Positions 53,413 to 58,533 of a DNA stretch of 64,000 nucleotides are shown here, in pieces. The DNA is taken from positions 1-64,000 of the IMG/VR virus record IMGVR_UViG_3300048997_000353; one strand, given 5' to 3'. A program made the translations under genes and the position numbers. The notes beneath the pieces are model-generated. The model was not told the origin of the DNA, did no database searches, and was given only the letters and a program-made list of their open reading frames with translations. The DNA comes from a virus. Every line of letters begins with the position of its first letter. Within the stretch, counting starts at the first letter, position 1.

Positions 53413-55872
53413 TCAAGAAACTTCAGCCTCATCGCTAATGACTAGAGCACACAGGCAATTCACATGCGCTGGATAGGTGGGCACGGATGCGATCGAATAG
53501 GGCGAGCCCGCCTCGAGTTCGTCGCACTCATCATCCAGGTCGTGATTGGAACTCATTTGCCAATCCACGAATTTGACGATTCCTGATTTCCGCCAGGACT
53601 CTAAATTCCCGTTTACTTGCGCGCTCGAGATCTCCGTTCTGGCAATCATGGCGGCGCGCTGGTCGTTGAAGATTCCGGACTTGTCGATCCGCGCTTCGAT
53701 ATCCGCGAGCTTGGGCGTTTTTTCTTCCGCGAACAGTTCCGTCACGATGTCGTGGATTTTTGTTCTGGTGGTTTCACTGATGGCCCACTTCGCATCCGGA
53801 TTGGCAATGAGCTTGCCAGAATTGGTGACTTTCATTCCCACCATTTCGGCGGCGCGCGCCGAAGCCCATTCCTGCGCTGCTTCGTTCATTCCGGAAATCA
53901 TGTCCTCATCGGAAATGTCGAGCTGCAGGATCCCGTTGGACACGCCGGCAATGGCGGCGTCCTGAAAATATTCTTCCGTCTCTTCCGCAATTTTGCGCCA
54001 GTCATCCGCGATCGATCGCAAAATTGCTTTCACTGTATCGTCCGCGGCCGCTTTGTGCAGCGTGGGTTCCATCGTTGCGGCCATGTGTCTATCCGGAAGA
54101 CCGAGAGACTTGGCCAATTGCTTTTTGGTTTTCCGCTTCATGGTCGCAAAGTGATCCTTCACAACTTTTTCCACGGCGTTTTTGGCAATGATGGATTGTG
54201 GCGCCAATCGATCGGGCGTGATTTTGATGCGTGCGCTCTTGCCGAATTTGAGAGAACCGGCGGCTTTGCCTTTGCCTTCTTTGCCTTTACCCGGAGGCGT
54301 CTGCTGTGCGCCAGCGCCGCCCTTCCCAGGTTTCTCCCCTCCTTTGTCACCGCCGGTCTCTTCTTGACCAGGAAGTCCGATTTGTCTGCGCGCTGTACCG
54401 TTTACCGCAGTTGCTTGCTGGTGTCGCTGCAATTCCATCTTGGCCTGCGATTCCAGCGCGGCCTGGCCCAGCAAAACAAATCCAGTACCGGTAATGATGC
54501 CAAGTTGCGAGGCCTCCGGTTCGTTCCGATCGTCCTCACCCAGCCGTTCGCGGCCTTCGTTCGGCGTGATAATTCCGCCGCCCACCAAAATTTTAATCGT
54601 TTCCGCATTTTTTTGCGGATCAGGTTCGGTGAAGGGCTGGAACGCCATCTCATAATCCGGCAGATTGAATTTCTGCTGGATTATGTAATCGATCAAGCCT
54701 TTGATGAAATCGACCCAGGGCAGCGTGCCTTCTTCGACCGATGCTTCCTGCGATTGCTCGGCCGACGCGCGGTTCATCGCGCGGATCAGTCGTTGCGCCG
54801 ACGTGCCAAATCCGAAAGCAATCTTCCGGATATGCATGTCGTCGAATTCGTCCTTGAGCAAGGGCTCTTTGGTGAAAATAATTTGGTCGGGTTTTTCAGC
54901 ATCATTGAAGCCTTGTACCATCCGCCACTGCCGGCGCGCGGCTAGATTGCCCGCCAGTTCCGAATTCATCCAGGTCATCGCTTCCGCGATTTTGTCGGGC
55001 GGCGTGCCCTTGGGCACAACCTGCACAACGCCTGGCGTCGAGCCTTCCGTGTAATAGGCCAAGGTAAAAGCCAGCCGCTGCGCGCCAATTTCAATTTCCG
55101 TTGCGAGCTGCTCGACAGGGGACATTCCGTAGAGTTGGGAAGAAATCGTATTCCGCGGAACGATGTTGCGCGGCTTGTAAATGAGTTGGTCGGTAGTCAG
55201 ATTGACAAGCGGAATGCCCCACCAGTTTTGCGCGTAAGCAGGTTGCGGCGGCATCGGCGTCCAGCCATTCACGTCGATGTACCGCACAATGGAATCGCCG
55301 CGAAGAACGGGCAACTCCACAATTTCTCCCTTGAAGGTTTTGCGAATCAAAATGGCGACGGCATCGAGCACCAGCAGATCGTCCATCAGTGGCCGAAGCC
55401 ATTCCTGCCAGTTGTGTTCCCGGTCCGGGCGTTCGAAGAATTTACTGAGCTTGACGATTTGCGCATCGCCCTCAGCGCGCTTCTTCGCTTCTTTCTTGGT
55501 TTCTCCCGGTTTGCGGCGTAGTTGAACTTCCCAGGGAATTTTCGCGACGGAATCTTTGACATTCTCGATACAGATCCTCGCGAGGGGATACATCGCGAGC
55601 GCCTTGAGCGCCGCCGCCGAATATTCAGCATCCGCGCGCGGCGTATACAGCAAGTTCTGGCCAGCCCAATATTGAAACCCGCGTGGCTCGGTTCCTTCCG
55701 GCGCAATGGGTTTGACAGGTTGAAGGGGAGAATACCAAGTGCCGGCATCGATACCACGGATGGTTTCATCGGGCGGTTGATAGAGCTGACGGCCGTATTG
55801 CTGGAGCGCCTGGACAACAGGGCCAAGGTTGCGGACAGTGATCCCGGAACCGGACCCTGGAGAATTAGCCAT
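53413..55872 (-). CDS. Portal protein fused to a Mu gpF-like minor head domain
   Basis: DDLLVLDA, YGMSPVEQ, YYTEGSTP, IITPNEGRERLG; C-terminal RAAMIARTE...YPAHVNCLC. Confidence 0.92.
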   Translation of the reverse strand: MANSPGSGSGITVRNLGPVVQALQQYGRQLYQPPDETIRGIDAGTWYSPLQPVKPIAPEGTEPRGFQYWAGQNLLYTPRADAEYSAAALKALAMYPLARICIENVKDSVAKIPWEVQLRRKPGETKKEAKKRAEGDAQIVKLSKFFERPDREHNWQEWLRPLMDDLLVLDAVAILIRKTFKGEIVELPVLRGDSIVRYIDVNGWTPMPPQPAYAQNWWGIPLVNLTTDQLIYKPRNIVPRNTISSQLYGMSPVEQLATEIEIGAQRLAFTLAYYTEGSTPGVVQVVPKGTPPDKIAEAMTWMNSELAGNLAARRQWRMVQGFNDAEKPDQIIFTKEPLLKDEFDDMHIRKIAFGFGTSAQRLIRAMNRASAEQSQEASVEEGTLPWVDFIKGLIDYIIQQKFNLPDYEMAFQPFTEPDPQKNAETIKILVGGGIITPNEGRERLGEDDRNEPEASQLGIITGTGFVLLGQAALESQAKMELQRHQQATAVNGTARRQIGLPGQEETGGDKGGEKPGKGGAGAQQTPPGKGKEGKGKAAGSLKFGKSARIKITPDRLAPQSIIAKNAVEKVVKDHFATMKRKTKKQLAKSLGLPDRHMAATMEPTLHKAAADDTVKAILRSIADDWRKIAEETEEYFQDAAIAGVSNGILQLDISDEDMISGMNEAAQEWASARAAEMVGMKVTNSGKLIANPDAKWAISETTRTKIHDIVTELFAEEKTPKLADIEARIDKSGIFNDQRAAMIARTEISSAQVNGNLESWRKSGIVKFVDWQMSSNHDLDDECDELEAGSPYSIASVPTYPAHVNCLCALVISDEAEVS

Positions 55873-56800: not shown

Positions 56801-56875
56801 TGGAGCGCCTGGCGCGATTCGAACGCGCGACCCGCCTCTTTAGAGAAGGCTACTCTACCGCTGAGTTACAGGCGC
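56801..56875 (-). tRNA. Amber suppressor tRNA (anticodon CUA), canonical cloverleaf
   Basis: GCGCCTG TA ACTC AGCGGTA GAGT A GCCTT CTCTAAA GAGGC GGGTC GCGCG TTCGAAT CGCGC CAGGCGC T CCA. Confidence 0.92.
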
Positions 56876-56908
56876 CCGGTGCAAAAACCATGTCAAATCG
56901 CGTGCATA

Positions 56909-57388
56909 TTATTCCAACGATTCGACCAAGCTGGTGCCCGGTCCGCACTCAAGCGCAGTGAGCTGCCGCCCACTACCGGGCAGAGAATTGGTGCGGACGG
57001 TAGGATTTTCACCCACACTTTCAGCTTTAGAGGCCGACGTGCCTGACACCGCGTCCGCAGTGTATTTCCAAAGTCGGTAGTTCTTCAGCGCCGCGCGCTG
57101 TTCCCCCGTGATCGGAGCCGTGGCAATCGCCGTAAATCCAAAGTTATTATCCGGTTCGGTCCAGAGGTAGTGCGGGATGTAGTTGGCTTGCAGCTTCGCC
57201 ACGACGCGGCGCAAAGCGGCCACACCGGGCAGGCCGACGACGATGATATTGGGAACGAGATCTTCGTTGGGGTGCTGGATGGCGGCGAGATGGAAAACTG
57301 CATGATTGGCTTGAACGATTTGGTGAGCGACAGGAATGTCCTGTCTAACGAAAACGTACACTGCATGGTCAGTGGGAATCTATGTCAT
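56909..57388 (-). CDS. Pth2-like peptidyl-tRNA hydrolase with an in-frame TAG at codon 3
   Basis: YVFVRQD...QIVQANHA...IIVVG...WTEPD...TAIATAP...LKNYRLW matches the PTH2 family pattern; the frame begins ATG ACA TAG ATT CCC ACT GAC CAT GCA GTG TAC. Confidence 0.82.
56932..56981 (-). ncRNA. 50-nt tRNA-like mini RNA with acceptor stem and ACCA end
   Basis: GCCCGGT AGTGGGC GGCA GCTCACT GCGC TTGA GTGC GG ACCGGGC ACCA: perfect 7-bp acceptor stem plus two hairpins. Confidence 0.6.
56989..57058 (-). tRNA. Atypical 70-nt tRNA with CUA anticodon (short D arm, non-canonical T loop)
   Basis: GCGGACG CG GTG TCAGG CAC G TCGGC CTCTAAA GCTGA AAGT GTGGG TGAAAAT CCTAC CGTCCGC A CCA. Confidence 0.8.
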
Positions 57389-57395
57389 GGCGAGC

Positions 57396-57424
57396 ATTCT
57401 CTGCGTGAACGATGGTGAAGTCAA
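57396..57424 (-). promoter_or_regulatory. Sigma70-type promoter predicted to give a leaderless pth2-like mRNA
   Basis: TTGACT-17bp-GAGAAT, then 7 nt to the ATG at 57388; no Shine-Dalgarno sequence. Confidence 0.65.
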
Positions 57425-57425
57425 C

Positions 57426-57454
57426 AAAAAAAAGGGCGAGCGTTTCTCGCGCCC
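57426..57454 (-). terminator. Rho-independent terminator
   Basis: GGGCGCGAG AAACG CTCGCCC followed by T8 on the minus strand. Confidence 0.8.
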
Positions 57455-57483
57455 GCCCTAAACCAACACCCCATTTTCGAAAG

Positions 57484-58485: not shown

Positions 58486-58533
58486 ACGGTACGCCTTCAC
58501 AAGCAGCGTTTCGTCTCACGACTCTTCAGCCGC
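58486..58533 (-). ncRNA. Type I hammerhead ribozyme
   Basis: GCGG CUGAAGA GUC GUGA GAC GAAA CGC UG CUU GUG AAG GCG UA CCGU: intact CUGANGA / GAAA / GUH core with stems I-III. Confidence 0.85.

What the first reader, a model, noticed from the sequence alone, without database searches (positions are those of the whole stretch)
56932..56981. 50-nt mini-tRNA (acceptor stem, two hairpins, ACCA) between the two CUA tRNAs
Seen: perfect 7-bp stem GCCCGGT/ACCGGGC followed by ACCA, enclosing a hairpin with a GGCA tetraloop and a T-arm-like hairpin; no anticodon loop. It starts 8 nt after the CCA of the atypical tRNA. Inference: an aminoacylatable minihelix-like RNA, a processing signal, or a decoy for tRNA-modifying toxins or nucleases. 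Standard tRNA finders would probably miss it.
Basis: partly seen in the sequence, partly recalled or inferred. Interest (0 to 1): 0.7.

Follow-up and report, generated by a model that had tools for sequence, protein, structure and literature searches.

The report
Anticodon-less mini-tRNA in phage suppressor cassette
A soil phage carries a real, conserved 50-base RNA shaped like the top half of a tRNA, wedged between two stop-codon-reading tRNAs and lying inside the tail of a small gene; it most likely acts as a cutting and stopping mark rather than as a decoder.

Summary
There is a 7-bp acceptor-like stem, ACCA, a GGCA-capped hairpin and a short T-like hairpin. It starts 7 nt after the CCA of a shrunken tRNA(CUA). 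ARAGORN and Rfam miss it.

It is not chance. A covariance model built from three other phages, without the window, finds it at 60.1 bits (E 1e-11). All three helices covary (16 of 18 pairs). I found 28 distinct minis, always in one cassette: a Pth2-like gene starting ATG-NNN-TAG, then tRNA(CUA)s and minis spaced 0-11 nt apart.

An unexpected result: the gene has no stop codon of its own. It reads through the first tRNA. In 12 of 13 relatives with this mini type it ends inside the mini, usually at UGA or UAA in the T-like loop. The window is the exception: its stop lies 20 nt further on.

Best reading (0.45): a tRNA-derived processing and translation-end mark, like plant mitochondrial t-elements. 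Rival readings, such as an acceptor-end decoy or a charged carrier, are untested.

No paper I searched describes it. Earlier notes from this scan report similar CCA-ended mini-tRNAs in other phages.

The parts
56932..56981 (-). The mini-tRNA (50 nt), a type-1 member of the family
   Evidence: Sequence. Fold. R1 hit of 60.1 bits, E 1.2e-11. Only strong hit in its own genome.
56975..56981 (-). 5' strand of the acceptor-like stem (GCCCGGU)
   Evidence: Across the family, 7 of 8 acceptor pairs show compensatory changes.
56957..56974 (-). Hairpin 1: 7 bp capped by a GGCA tetraloop (56964-56967). It stands where the D and anticodon arms would be.
   Evidence: 6 of 7 pairs covary. The GGCA loop is shared with L025, L044, L017, L047 and L103.
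56944..56955 (-). Hairpin 2 (T-like): 3 bp plus the 6-nt loop UUGAGU (56947-56952). The UGA triplet at 56949-56951 is out of frame in this window.
   Evidence: Alignment. 3 of 3 pairs covary. Frame analysis.
56932..56942 (-). 3' strand of the acceptor-like stem (56936-56942), then unpaired A73-like base and encoded CCA (56932-56935)
   Evidence: All 28 distinct minis end in NCCA. The descriptor and the models both lean towards this feature.
56982..56988 (-). 7-nt spacer between tRNA(CUA)#1 and the mini; U at position -1 of the mini
   Evidence: U(-1) in 20 of 28 minis against 12 of 35 array tRNAs.
56989..57058 (-). Atypical 70-nt tRNA(CUA)#1, directly abutting the Pth2-like domain
   Evidence: Rfam tRNA hit of 41.3 bits at 56992-57058. 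Missed by ARAGORN.
56801..56875 (-). Canonical tRNA(CUA)#2
   Evidence: ARAGORN. Rfam 60.5 bits.
56909..57388 (-). Pth2-like reading frame. It starts ATG ACA TAG (the TAG is at 57380-57382). The conserved domain is 57059-57379. There is no stop before the RNAs. The frame reads through tRNA#1 and the mini to TAA at 56909-56911.
   Evidence: Pfam PTH2 E 0.015, below cut-off. Profile against PDB: peptidyl-tRNA hydrolase, E 7.5e-4.
57396..57459 (-). Terminator-like hairpin (57433-57459), then promoter-like TTGACT-17-GAGAAT (57396-57424), just upstream of the ATG
   Evidence: These are consensus matches only.

Best explanation
The element is a tRNA-derived, anticodon-less RNA. It has kept what the tRNA end-processing machinery reads and has lost what decoding needs.

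What it keeps: a 7-8 bp acceptor helix that can stack on a 3-4 bp T-like hairpin, an unpaired N73, an encoded CCA, and mostly U at position -1.

I propose it works in cis, as a punctuation mark in a phage operon laid out as follows: an amber-gated Pth2-like gene, then tRNA(CUA), then the mini, then tRNA(CUA). Two roles follow.

1. Like the tRNAs beside it, the mini is recognised by host RNase P and 3' trimming enzymes. This separates the tightly packed units and releases a 50-nt CCA-ended RNA.
2. It marks the end of the translated stretch. The gene has no stop codon of its own. Ribosomes that pass the UAG at codon 3 read across the first tRNA gene and are released in or just after the mini, before the last suppressor tRNA. 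Translation and tRNA excision therefore compete on one RNA.

Shown: the structure, its conservation and covariation, its restriction to this cassette, the loss of the anticodon and D arms, the frame relations.

Inferred: cleavage, release, and the coupling of translation to processing.
For: Family membership and covariation:
- R1, built without the window, hits the mini at 60.1 bits.
- In A6, 100% of 195 cells are paired and 16 of 18 pairs show double changes. The covariation score is 0.827, against 0.212 in shuffles (0 of 500 reach it) and 0.056-0.099 for slid partners.
- In A7, 96.3% of 295 cells are paired and 16 of 18 pairs show double changes.

Restriction to the cassette:
- Every convincing hit lies just downstream of a Pth2-like ORF.
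- The three further hits found in whole viral records lie in the same cassette.
- 20 of 65 distinct Pth2-like loci with at least 250 nt of downstream sequence have a mini, all among the closer relatives.

Processing-type features:
- Spacers are 0-11 nt on both sides in relatives.
- All 28 distinct minis end in NCCA. U(-1) occurs in 20 of 28 minis against 12 of 35 array tRNAs.
- Acceptor sequence and discriminator vary freely. That is expected for shape-reading enzymes.

The end of translation:
- RNA1 starts on a codon boundary in 18 of 20 arrays.
- The first in-frame TAA or TGA lies inside the type-1 mini in 12 of 13 distinct arrays. In 10 of 13 it is the loop triplet.
- This includes one UGA-to-UAA change (L105) and paths of 27 to 69 codons.

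Analogues in print:
- Plant mitochondrial t-elements are cleaved, CCA-tailed and not aminoacylated (bioRxiv 10.1101/2024.09.09.612099, passages read).
- They define mRNA ends (PMC1920247, abstract only).
Against: - There are no expression data.
- The flanking tRNAs should be processed without the mini. L022 has tRNA(CUA)-tRNA(CUA) with no mini at all. A pure processing role therefore gives no obvious reason to keep it.
- RNase P recognition does not explain why hairpin 1 is always retained, or why the loops GGCA and UUGAGU are conserved.
- The T-like loop has 6 nt and is not a canonical T-loop.
- In this very window the loop UGA is out of frame and the stop lies 20 nt past the mini. Compared with the 52-nt relatives, the window's mini lacks the 8th acceptor pair.
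- The frame counts come from related phages and are not independent. Counting distinct path lengths, 5 of 6 events keep the frame (about p 0.02, my estimate).
- Both alignments were fitted to the model structure. Each holds one doubtful row: L011 (E 0.64) in A6, and a true tRNA (L029:2225-2299) in A7.
Confidence: 0.45

Rival explanations
1. Trans-acting acceptor-end mimic. Once excised, the abundant CCA-ended mini competes with, or sacrifices itself for, cellular and phage tRNAs. The targets would be host factors that read only the acceptor stem plus CCA. Examples are anti-phage toxins that pyrophosphorylate, extend, trim or acetylate tRNA 3' ends. Alternatively, it is a ligand of the Pth2-like enzyme.
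For: - A synthetic acceptor/T minihelix is enough for efficient modification by the toxSAS FaRel2. That enzyme reads pairs 1:72, 2:71, 4:69 and 5:68 (PMC11245113, passages read).
- All four of those pair types occur in 8 of 28 minis, against 2 of 35 true tRNAs from the same arrays. The window has 3 of 4.
- Fast-changing acceptor sequences on a constant scaffold would fit an arms race.
- The mini is kept although its neighbours do not need it for processing.
- MenT toxins also act on acceptor ends (PMC10435456, listing only).
Against: - A sacrificial substrate would have to rival the whole tRNA pool.
- toxSAS specificities differ between enzymes, and the host is unknown. The 8-of-28 enrichment is a lead, not a test.
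- This reading does not explain the in-frame stop in the loop.
- No toxin or antitoxin partner was seen near the cassette.
Confidence: 0.2
2. An mRNA element only. The structure is never excised. It simply forms the structured 3' end, or stop-codon context, of the Pth2-like message. It might work as a ribosome landing pad or as a 3' protective fold.
For: - The ORF ends inside the mini in 12 of 13 type-1 arrays.
- Type-2 minis sit wholly inside the ORF, directly after the domain.
Against: - An mRNA element has no need for a 7-bp stem closed at both ends, an unpaired N73 plus CCA, U at -1, and tRNA-like spacing.
- Three minis stand head to tail in L006/L059, most of them beyond the stop.
Confidence: 0.12
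3. A decaying tRNA gene with no function of its own, still carried along in the array.
For: - It is optional: absent in L022 and in 45 of 65 Pth2-like loci.
- Copy number varies from 1 to 3.
- It is clearly derived from a tRNA.
Against: - Compensatory changes maintain all three helices across phages whose neighbouring protein is only about 45-62% identical.
- The loops are conserved.
- Phage genomes shed useless DNA quickly.
Confidence: 0.08
4. A charged, non-decoding amino-acid carrier. One possibility is that it enters ribosomes stalled on stop-less messages and accepts the peptide, which the Pth2-like hydrolase then releases. That would be a minimal rescue system.
For: - It has ACCA and an intact acceptor branch.
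- The neighbouring gene is peptidyl-tRNA-hydrolase-like.
- RNase P cleavage at RNA1 would leave that message without a stop.
Against: - There is no conserved identity set. Pair 3:70 is never G:U in A6, and N73 varies.
- No tmRNA-type Rfam hit was found.
- No SmpB-like partner was looked for.
- Plant t-elements and mascRNA, the nearest natural analogues, are not charged (10.1101/2024.09.09.612099, passages read).
Confidence: 0.07
5. A D-arm-less amber suppressor tRNA.
For: Some relatives (L024, L039, L104, L105) have a 7-bp stem with a 7-nt loop UGCUAGY that contains CUA.
Against: - The window has a 4-nt GGCA loop and no CUA.
- Position 33 of those 7-nt loops is G, not U.
- The arm is too short to span from the decoding centre to the peptidyl-transferase centre (inference).
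- The near-identical minis L103 and L104 swap GGCA for UGCUAGC.
Confidence: 0.02

Closest known systems
Plant mitochondrial t-elements
   Same: - tRNA-derived structures placed at the ends of protein-coding messages.
- Recognised by RNase P and RNase Z and carry CCA tails, but take no part in decoding (10.1101/2024.09.09.612099, passages read; PMC1920247, abstract only).
- Some of the flanking mRNAs end without stop codons (PMC1920247 and PMC12214727, listing or abstract only).
   Different: - t-elements keep a cloverleaf-like shape, and their CCA is added after transcription.
- Here the D and anticodon arms are replaced by one capped hairpin, and CCA is encoded.
- The host is a phage.
- The element sits inside an array of suppressor tRNAs and usually carries the ORF's stop codon.
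mascRNA (tRNA-like RNA cut from MALAT1)
   Same: A small tRNA-like RNA released by RNase P and RNase Z. [quoted passage not shown]
   Different: mascRNA is eukaryotic, is cut from a long non-coding RNA and keeps four arms. There is no link to an ORF or to suppressor tRNAs.
Synthetic acceptor/T-stem minihelices
   Same: A coaxial acceptor plus T helix with NCCA. These are model substrates for enzymes that read tRNA ends. One is modified efficiently by the toxSAS FaRel2 (PMC11245113, passages read). Their use with RNase P, the CCA-adding enzyme and synthetases is recalled, not read here.
   Different: They are laboratory constructs with a single hairpin. The phage RNA is natural and has an extra 7-bp hairpin at a three-way junction.
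tRNA-like domain of tmRNA, including reduced mitochondrial forms
   Same: Anticodon-less, with an acceptor stem, a T-arm and an ACCA end (PMC3985003 and PMC3590771, abstracts only).
   Different: tmRNA needs G3:U70 for alanine charging and a canonical T-loop. The window has C3-G70, and no G:U occurs at that pair in the family. No tmRNA-clan Rfam hit was found.
T4 RNAC and RNAD
   Same: Small stable RNAs transcribed from a phage tRNA gene region, with unknown roles (PMC3014915, one passage read).
   Different: My recollection is that they are longer.
allo-tRNAs with 8/4 or 9/3 acceptor branches
   Same: Soil (Acidobacteria) and phage tRNAs whose acceptor/T branch is split unusually. Some are suppressors (PMC5389517, passages read). 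Type-1 minis have 8 + 3 pairs and type-2 minis have 7 + 4.
   Different: allo-tRNAs keep D, anticodon and long variable arms, and they decode.
Theta (HDV-like) ribozymes next to phage suppressor tRNAs
   Same: Small structured RNAs placed directly beside phage tRNAs, often suppressors. They are proposed to shape tRNA ends (PMC10879173, abstract only).
   Different: They are self-cleaving ribozymes with a different fold. The mini has no ribozyme match.

Membership tests
Canonical tRNA (Rfam RF00005 / ARAGORN) | Cloverleaf with a D-arm, an anticodon arm with a 7-nt loop, and a T-arm | tested here: not met
   No RF00005 hit at E<=10 over the element. ARAGORN is silent. The fold shows two hairpins only, with a GGCA tetraloop.
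Canonical tRNA (Rfam RF00005 / ARAGORN) | 7-bp acceptor stem, unpaired discriminator, CCA end | tested here: met
   GCCCGGU/ACCGGGC followed by ACCA.
Phage mini-tRNA family defined here (model R1, type 1) | Sequence and structure match to a model built from other phages | tested here: met
   60.1 bits, E 1.2e-11. The window was not in the seed.
Phage mini-tRNA family defined here (model R1, type 1) | Position between tRNA(CUA) genes, downstream of an ATG-NNN-TAG Pth2-like ORF | tested here: met
Phage mini-tRNA family defined here (model R1, type 1) | The ORF's stop codon lies inside the mini | tested here: not met
   The window's stop is TAA at 56909-56911, 20 nt past the mini. 12 of 13 type-1 arrays meet this feature, and the window is the one that does not.
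tmRNA tRNA-like domain | G3:U70 alanine identity pair and a canonical T-loop | tested here: not met
   The window has C3-G70. Pair 3 in A6 is GC 7, CG 2, AU 1, UA 1, with no G:U. The loop UUGAGU has 6 nt. There is no tmRNA-clan hit.
Plant-type t-element (works-like comparison) | tRNA-derived structure abutting or overlapping the end of an ORF | tested here: met
Plant-type t-element (works-like comparison) | Cleaved by RNase P/Z in vivo | not testable with these tools
   This needs RNA-end mapping or an enzyme assay.
Acceptor/T minihelix substrates | About 12 stacked pairs of acceptor plus T stem, with a T-loop and NCCA | tested here: inconclusive
   There are 7 + 3 Watson-Crick pairs in the window and 8 + 3 or 7 + 4 in relatives. 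The flanking G/G or G/A bases could add a layer, but that is inference. An extra hairpin is present.
Aminoacylatable tRNA-like RNA | A conserved identity set for one synthetase | tested here: not met
   The acceptor pairs and N73 vary (A 14, G 9, U 5 of 28). Charging itself cannot be tested here.

The most novel reading that the evidence does not exclude
The mini is the stop-bearing end of a translational feedback device. Ribosomes that get past the UAG at codon 3 translate straight across the first suppressor-tRNA gene. They are released at a stop codon displayed in the loop of a tRNA-shaped RNA. Translation and RNase P excision therefore compete for the same transcript. This ties the output of suppressor tRNA and of the Pth2-like enzyme to how well UAG is being read. 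A protein gene whose reading frame runs through tRNA genes and ends in a tRNA-like loop would be a new kind of gene overlap and of control over stop-codon suppression.
Probability: 0.2. Interest if true: 0.85.

Novelty: new variant of a known kind. Interest (0 to 1): 0.72.

Why it matters
- It adds a natural, conserved, anticodon-less tRNA derivative to phage biology. tRNA finders and Rfam miss it, so phage tRNA arrays are probably under-annotated.
- It exposes an unusual arrangement. A protein-coding frame, gated by an amber codon, has no stop of its own. It runs through a suppressor-tRNA gene and usually ends in the loop of the tRNA-like RNA. If translation and tRNA excision compete there, this would be a compact circuit for dosing stop-codon suppression. 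How phages control recoding is an open question.
- If the RNA instead acts in trans at tRNA 3' ends, it would be an RNA-based counter to defences that target tRNA ends.
- The amber gate itself also occurs in cultured jumbo phages, so that part can be tested at the bench now.

Tried and rejected
1. Exact search for the 50-mer in viral contigs: 0 hits. blastn of the array against cultured phages gave only a 41-nt tRNA-type match.

2. The portal protein as bait gave 16 loci. Only L006/L007 carried the cassette near the portal.

3. A single-protein scan with the Pth2-like protein confirmed 0 of 4 candidates. Alignments were needed.

4. Genome contigs: 85 pattern matches, none confirmed. I found no prophage or host clue.

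5. A MAFFT alignment of 17 minis put the stems out of register. I replaced it with gap-free seeds and covariance models.

6. Alternative pairing. The MFE of the 271-nt precursor pairs the 3' end of tRNA#1 with the 3' half of the mini. Across 11 arrays, cognate duplexes (-17.0 kcal/mol) are no better than non-cognate ones (-16.3), and their ranks are scattered. Rejected.

7. General TAG recoding of the phage. Recoding TAG lengthens long ORFs no more than recoding TAA does (182,973 against 188,100 nt). The portal gene and other long genes have no in-frame TAG. Rejected.

8. tmRNA-like and D-armless-suppressor readings: rejected for the window (see the membership tests).

9. No RF-1-domain or CCA-adding-enzyme gene was found in the 71%-complete genome. 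The six-frame PF01981 search found nothing either, so the name "Pth2-like" rests on weak profile matches and on one depositor's annotation.

10. R1 and R2 found no mini in three cultured phages. R2 found none in five viral records. The tool itself warns that an empty answer shows little.

11. Literature. Eight searches found no description of such phage RNAs. The catalogue of 8,495 IMG/VR structured-RNA candidates (PMC10690425) and the phage tRNA clusters in the supplement of PMC5389517 could contain this family.
Full report
WHAT IS THERE.

The window is the first 64 kb of a single 108,441-bp phage contig. CheckV completeness is 71%. A portal gene lies at 53413-55872 on the minus strand. All parts of the finding are on the minus strand. 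In order they are:

- a terminator-like hairpin (57459-57433) and a promoter-like TTGACT-17-GAGAAT (57424-57396);
- ATG ACA TAG at 57388-57380;
- a 107-codon conserved domain (57379-57059);
- directly after it, with no stop codon, a 70-nt atypical tRNA(CUA) (57058-56989; Rfam tRNA 41.3 bits, missed by ARAGORN);
- a 7-nt spacer;
- the 50-nt element (56981-56932);
- 56 nt of spacer;
- a canonical tRNA(CUA) (56875-56801; Rfam 60.5 bits).

The element reads as follows. GCCCGGU is followed by a 7-bp hairpin capped by GGCA, then G, then CGC-UUGAGU-GCG, then G, then ACCGGGC, then ACCA. Its MFE is -28.2 kcal/mol, and 0 of 200 shuffles fold as well (z -2.78).

IS IT MORE THAN CHANCE?

On its own, a 7-bp stem followed by NCCA is common. 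My descriptor finds 37 such places on the two strands of this genome. The case rests on relatives.

How the relatives were collected:
- The portal protein led to L006/L007. There the same cassette holds three such elements head to tail, 1-2 nt apart.
- An alignment of the upstream protein then retrieved 4 viral loci and 80 metagenome loci. In the metagenome scan 108 of 198 candidates were confirmed and the best 80 were kept.
- Nothing was confirmed in 85 candidates from bacterial and archaeal genomes.

The covariance models:
- R1 was built from three 52-nt elements of other phages (L044, L025, L017). It finds the window's element at 60.1 bits, E 1.2e-11. In the window's own genome it finds nothing else of note.
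- R2 was built from eight elements of a second subtype. It also reaches the window (22.2 bits, E 0.02), so the two subtypes are related.

Covariation on the model-fitted alignments:
- All three helices covary.
- A6 has 12 distinct rows. 100% of 195 cells are paired, and 16 of 18 pairs have changes on both sides. The score is 0.827, against 0.212 +/- 0.033 in shuffles (0 of 500 reach it) and 0.056-0.099 when partners are slid.
- A7 has 18 distinct rows, 96.3% paired cells and 16 of 18 pairs with changes on both sides.

Caveats: these alignments lean towards the model's structure. A6 holds one doubtful row (L011, E 0.64). A7 holds one true tRNA (L029:2225-2299).

Other checks:
- Rfam at gathering threshold on 20 of these loci reports 41 tRNAs and nothing over any mini.
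- R1 run on five whole viral records found three further members (L103-L105). All three lie in the same cassette.
- In all I count 28 distinct minis.
- 20 of 65 distinct Pth2-like loci with at least 250 nt of downstream sequence carry at least one mini. All 20 are among the closer relatives of the window's protein.

ANATOMY OF THE FAMILY.

Type 1 (the window's type):
- a 7-8 bp acceptor stem;
- with no linker, a 7-bp hairpin capped either by GGCA or by a 7-nt loop UGCUAGY;
- one base;
- a 3-bp hairpin with the loop UUGAGU (variants UUGAAU, UUAAGU, UUCAGU);
- one or two bases;
- the 3' acceptor strand, then N73 and CCA.

Type 2:
- a 7-bp acceptor stem;
- a hairpin capped mostly by GCAA or GAAA;
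- a 4-bp hairpin with a more T-loop-like UUCAAG-type loop.

Neither type has a D-arm or an anticodon loop.

The acceptor sequences and the discriminator are free to vary. N73 is A in 14, G in 9 and U in 5 of 28. No G:U occurs at pair 3. The base before the 5' end is U in 20 of 28 minis, against 12 of 35 true tRNAs from the same arrays. That U at -1 favours RNase P is recalled knowledge, not tested here.

Spacers to the neighbouring units are 0-11 nt in relatives. The window's 56-nt downstream spacer is the outlier.

ARRAY TYPES.

- In seven arrays (window, L025, L044, L017, L047, L024, L039) the order is ORF, tRNA(CUA)#1, type-1 mini, tRNA(CUA)#2.
- In others a type-2 mini takes the place of tRNA#1, directly after the ORF. 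It is sometimes followed by a second mini (L028, L040, L036).
- L022 has two tRNA(CUA)s and no mini.

So the first position after the ORF can be filled by an RNA that cannot decode.

THE UNEXPECTED LINK TO THE READING FRAME.

The upstream protein is only weakly Pth2-like:
- Pfam PTH2 gives E 0.015, below the cut-off.
- A 46-sequence profile hits a solved peptidyl-tRNA hydrolase at E 7.5e-4 and another at E 0.12.
- One cultured-phage homologue is annotated as peptidyl-tRNA hydrolase.
- A six-frame PF01981 search of the genome found nothing.

Its start is remarkable. In 35 of 36 loci examined an in-frame TAG lies just upstream of the conserved domain. In 29 of the 36 the gene begins exactly ATG-NNN-TAG.

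Its end is stranger. No locus with an abutting array has a stop codon between the domain and the first RNA. That RNA starts on a codon boundary in 18 of 20 arrays. The frame stays open through one or two whole tRNA genes.

The first TAA or TGA falls inside the type-1 mini in 12 of 13 distinct arrays. In 10 of the 13 it is the triplet at loop positions 2-4 of the T-like hairpin. Further details:
- L103-L105 were found by structure alone, before any frame was looked at. All three obey the rule.
- L105 carries UAA where the others carry UGA.
- The paths from domain to stop differ in length (27 to 69 codons). The frame has therefore been kept through several insertions and deletions.
- Under a one-in-three null, 12 of 13 is very unlikely. 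But the phages are related. Counting distinct path lengths, I estimate 5 of 6 events keep the frame (about p 0.02).
- Over the same 729 codons the other two frames hold 27 and 42 stops.

The window is the exception. Its mini lacks the 8th acceptor pair that the 52-nt relatives have. This shifts the loop UGA (56951-56949) out of frame. The ORF therefore runs on to TAA at 56911-56909, 20 nt past the mini.

HOW IT MOST LIKELY WORKS.

The features that are kept are the ones read by enzymes that handle tRNA ends by shape: the acceptor branch, N73, CCA, U at -1 and tRNA-like spacing. The features that are lost are the ones needed for decoding.

The nearest natural parallel is the plant mitochondrial t-element. 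It is tRNA-derived and sits at mRNA ends. It is cut by RNase P and RNase Z and is CCA-tailed, but it is not aminoacylated (bioRxiv 10.1101/2024.09.09.612099, passages read; PMC1920247, abstract).

I therefore read the mini as a tRNA-shaped punctuation unit. It is excised with its neighbours. It also marks where ribosomes that have passed the amber gate leave the transcript, just before the last suppressor tRNA.

The frame is kept open across the first tRNA. It would have been trivial to place a stop in the spacers. This suggests that translation across that tRNA gene matters. The simplest idea is competition between translation and RNase P excision on the same RNA. That would couple suppressor-tRNA and Pth2-like output to the level of suppression.

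Cleavage, release and coupling are all inferences. I put this composite reading at 0.45.

WHAT IT DOES NOT EXPLAIN, AND THE RIVALS.

Three things are unexplained:
- The neighbours should be processed without a mini (L022 has none).
- Hairpin 1 is never lost.
- The loops GGCA and UUGAGU are conserved on changing stems.

These points favour some function of the excised RNA itself.

The acceptor-end mimic reading (0.2) has one lead. The toxSAS FaRel2 efficiently modifies a bare minihelix and reads pairs 1:72, 2:71, 4:69 and 5:68 (PMC11245113, passages read). All four pair types occur in 8 of 28 minis but in only 2 of 35 array tRNAs. The host and its toxins are unknown, so this is not a test.

The other rivals:
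- mRNA-only element (0.12);
- relic (0.08);
- charged carrier or rescue RNA (0.07);
- D-armless suppressor (0.02; excluded for the window by its GGCA loop).

A tempting alternative pairing between tRNA#1's 3' end and the mini is not conserved.

KNOWN OR NEW?

Rfam has no family for it. Eight full-text searches found no description.

The nearest items in print are:
- t-elements and mascRNA;
- synthetic minihelices;
- the tmRNA tRNA-like domain;
- the unexplained T4 RNAC and RNAD from the T4 tRNA region (PMC3014915, one passage read);
- allo-tRNAs with 8/4 or 9/3 acceptor branches (PMC5389517, passages read);
- theta ribozymes beside phage suppressor tRNAs (PMC10879173, abstract).

A catalogue of IMG/VR structured-RNA candidates mentions tRNA-like structures (PMC10690425, passages read).

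Earlier notes from this scan report CCA-ended anticodon-less mini-tRNAs in other phages' tRNA arrays (e1-5402906, e1-5733862). They also describe the three-RNA cassette in this genome (e1-6055574). I did not check the notes on other phages.

I class the element as a new variant of a known kind: a tRNA-derived processing element. The overlap with the reading frame appears to be undescribed.

LIMITS.

- There are no expression data.
- The host is unknown. The contigs come from soil and peat metagenomes, judging by record names only.
- E-values from my models are rough, as the tool states.

Noticed in passing
window 57380-57388 (-); loci L017-L067; L106-L108: The Pth2-like gene starts ATG-NNN-TAG in 29 of 36 loci, and 35 of 36 have an early in-frame TAG. 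The same gate occurs in cultured phages: Salmonella phage Arash (ATG CTG TAG), Cronobacter phage GAP32 (ATG GCA CAA TAG) and Ralstonia phage RsoM2USA (ATG TTG TAG). In those records the gene is split, truncated or not annotated. There the gene has its own stop 12-24 nt after the domain, and no mini was found.
   Followed up: partly
window 56909-57388 (-); 19 related arrays: The gene has no stop before the RNA array. Its frame runs through one or two complete tRNA genes. The first RNA starts on a codon boundary in 18 of 20 arrays. RNase P cleavage there would leave a message without a stop codon.
   Followed up: partly
L103:1501-1553 and L104:1501-1554: Two near-identical minis differ only in hairpin 1. 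One has a GGCA tetraloop; the other has a 7-nt loop UGCUAGC that displays both CUA and UAG. The 7-nt form recurs in L024, L039 and L105. Its meaning is unknown.
   Followed up: no
L006:3342-3487 (same as L059:2284-2429): Three minis stand head to tail with 1-nt spacers. The third has a canonical-looking T-arm.
   Followed up: partly
L050:1079-1305: Two nearly identical copies of a type-2 mini flank a tRNA(CUA).
   Followed up: no
L017:1949-2054, L024:562-665, L039:915-1013, L059:2468-2567, L043:2373-2471: The last tRNA(CUA) of several arrays is 99-106 nt long, with a long extra arm or an insert. ARAGORN misreads some of them as Gly or Val. They recall type II tRNAs or allo-tRNAs.
   Followed up: no
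window 56876-56931 (-): The spacer between the mini and tRNA(CUA)#2 is 56 nt here, against 2-11 nt in the related type-A arrays. It holds the ORF's TAA and a TTGACA motif.
   Followed up: no
L018, L029, L038, L032, L036 arrays: Arrays often also carry tRNA-Lys(UUU), tRNA-Arg(UCU) or a tRNA with anticodon UAU. Phage tRNA-Lys variants are known counters to tRNA-cleaving defences. That point is cited at second hand, from the discussion of PMC11245113.
   Followed up: no
L045:1973-2130: A mini plus a long tRNA, identical to those of L039, lie on the strand opposite to the Pth2-like ORF. This may be an inversion or an assembly chimera.
   Followed up: no
window 58500-58529 (-): A weak hammerhead type I match (17.4 bits, E 1.8) lies just downstream of tRNA-Ala.
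   Followed up: no
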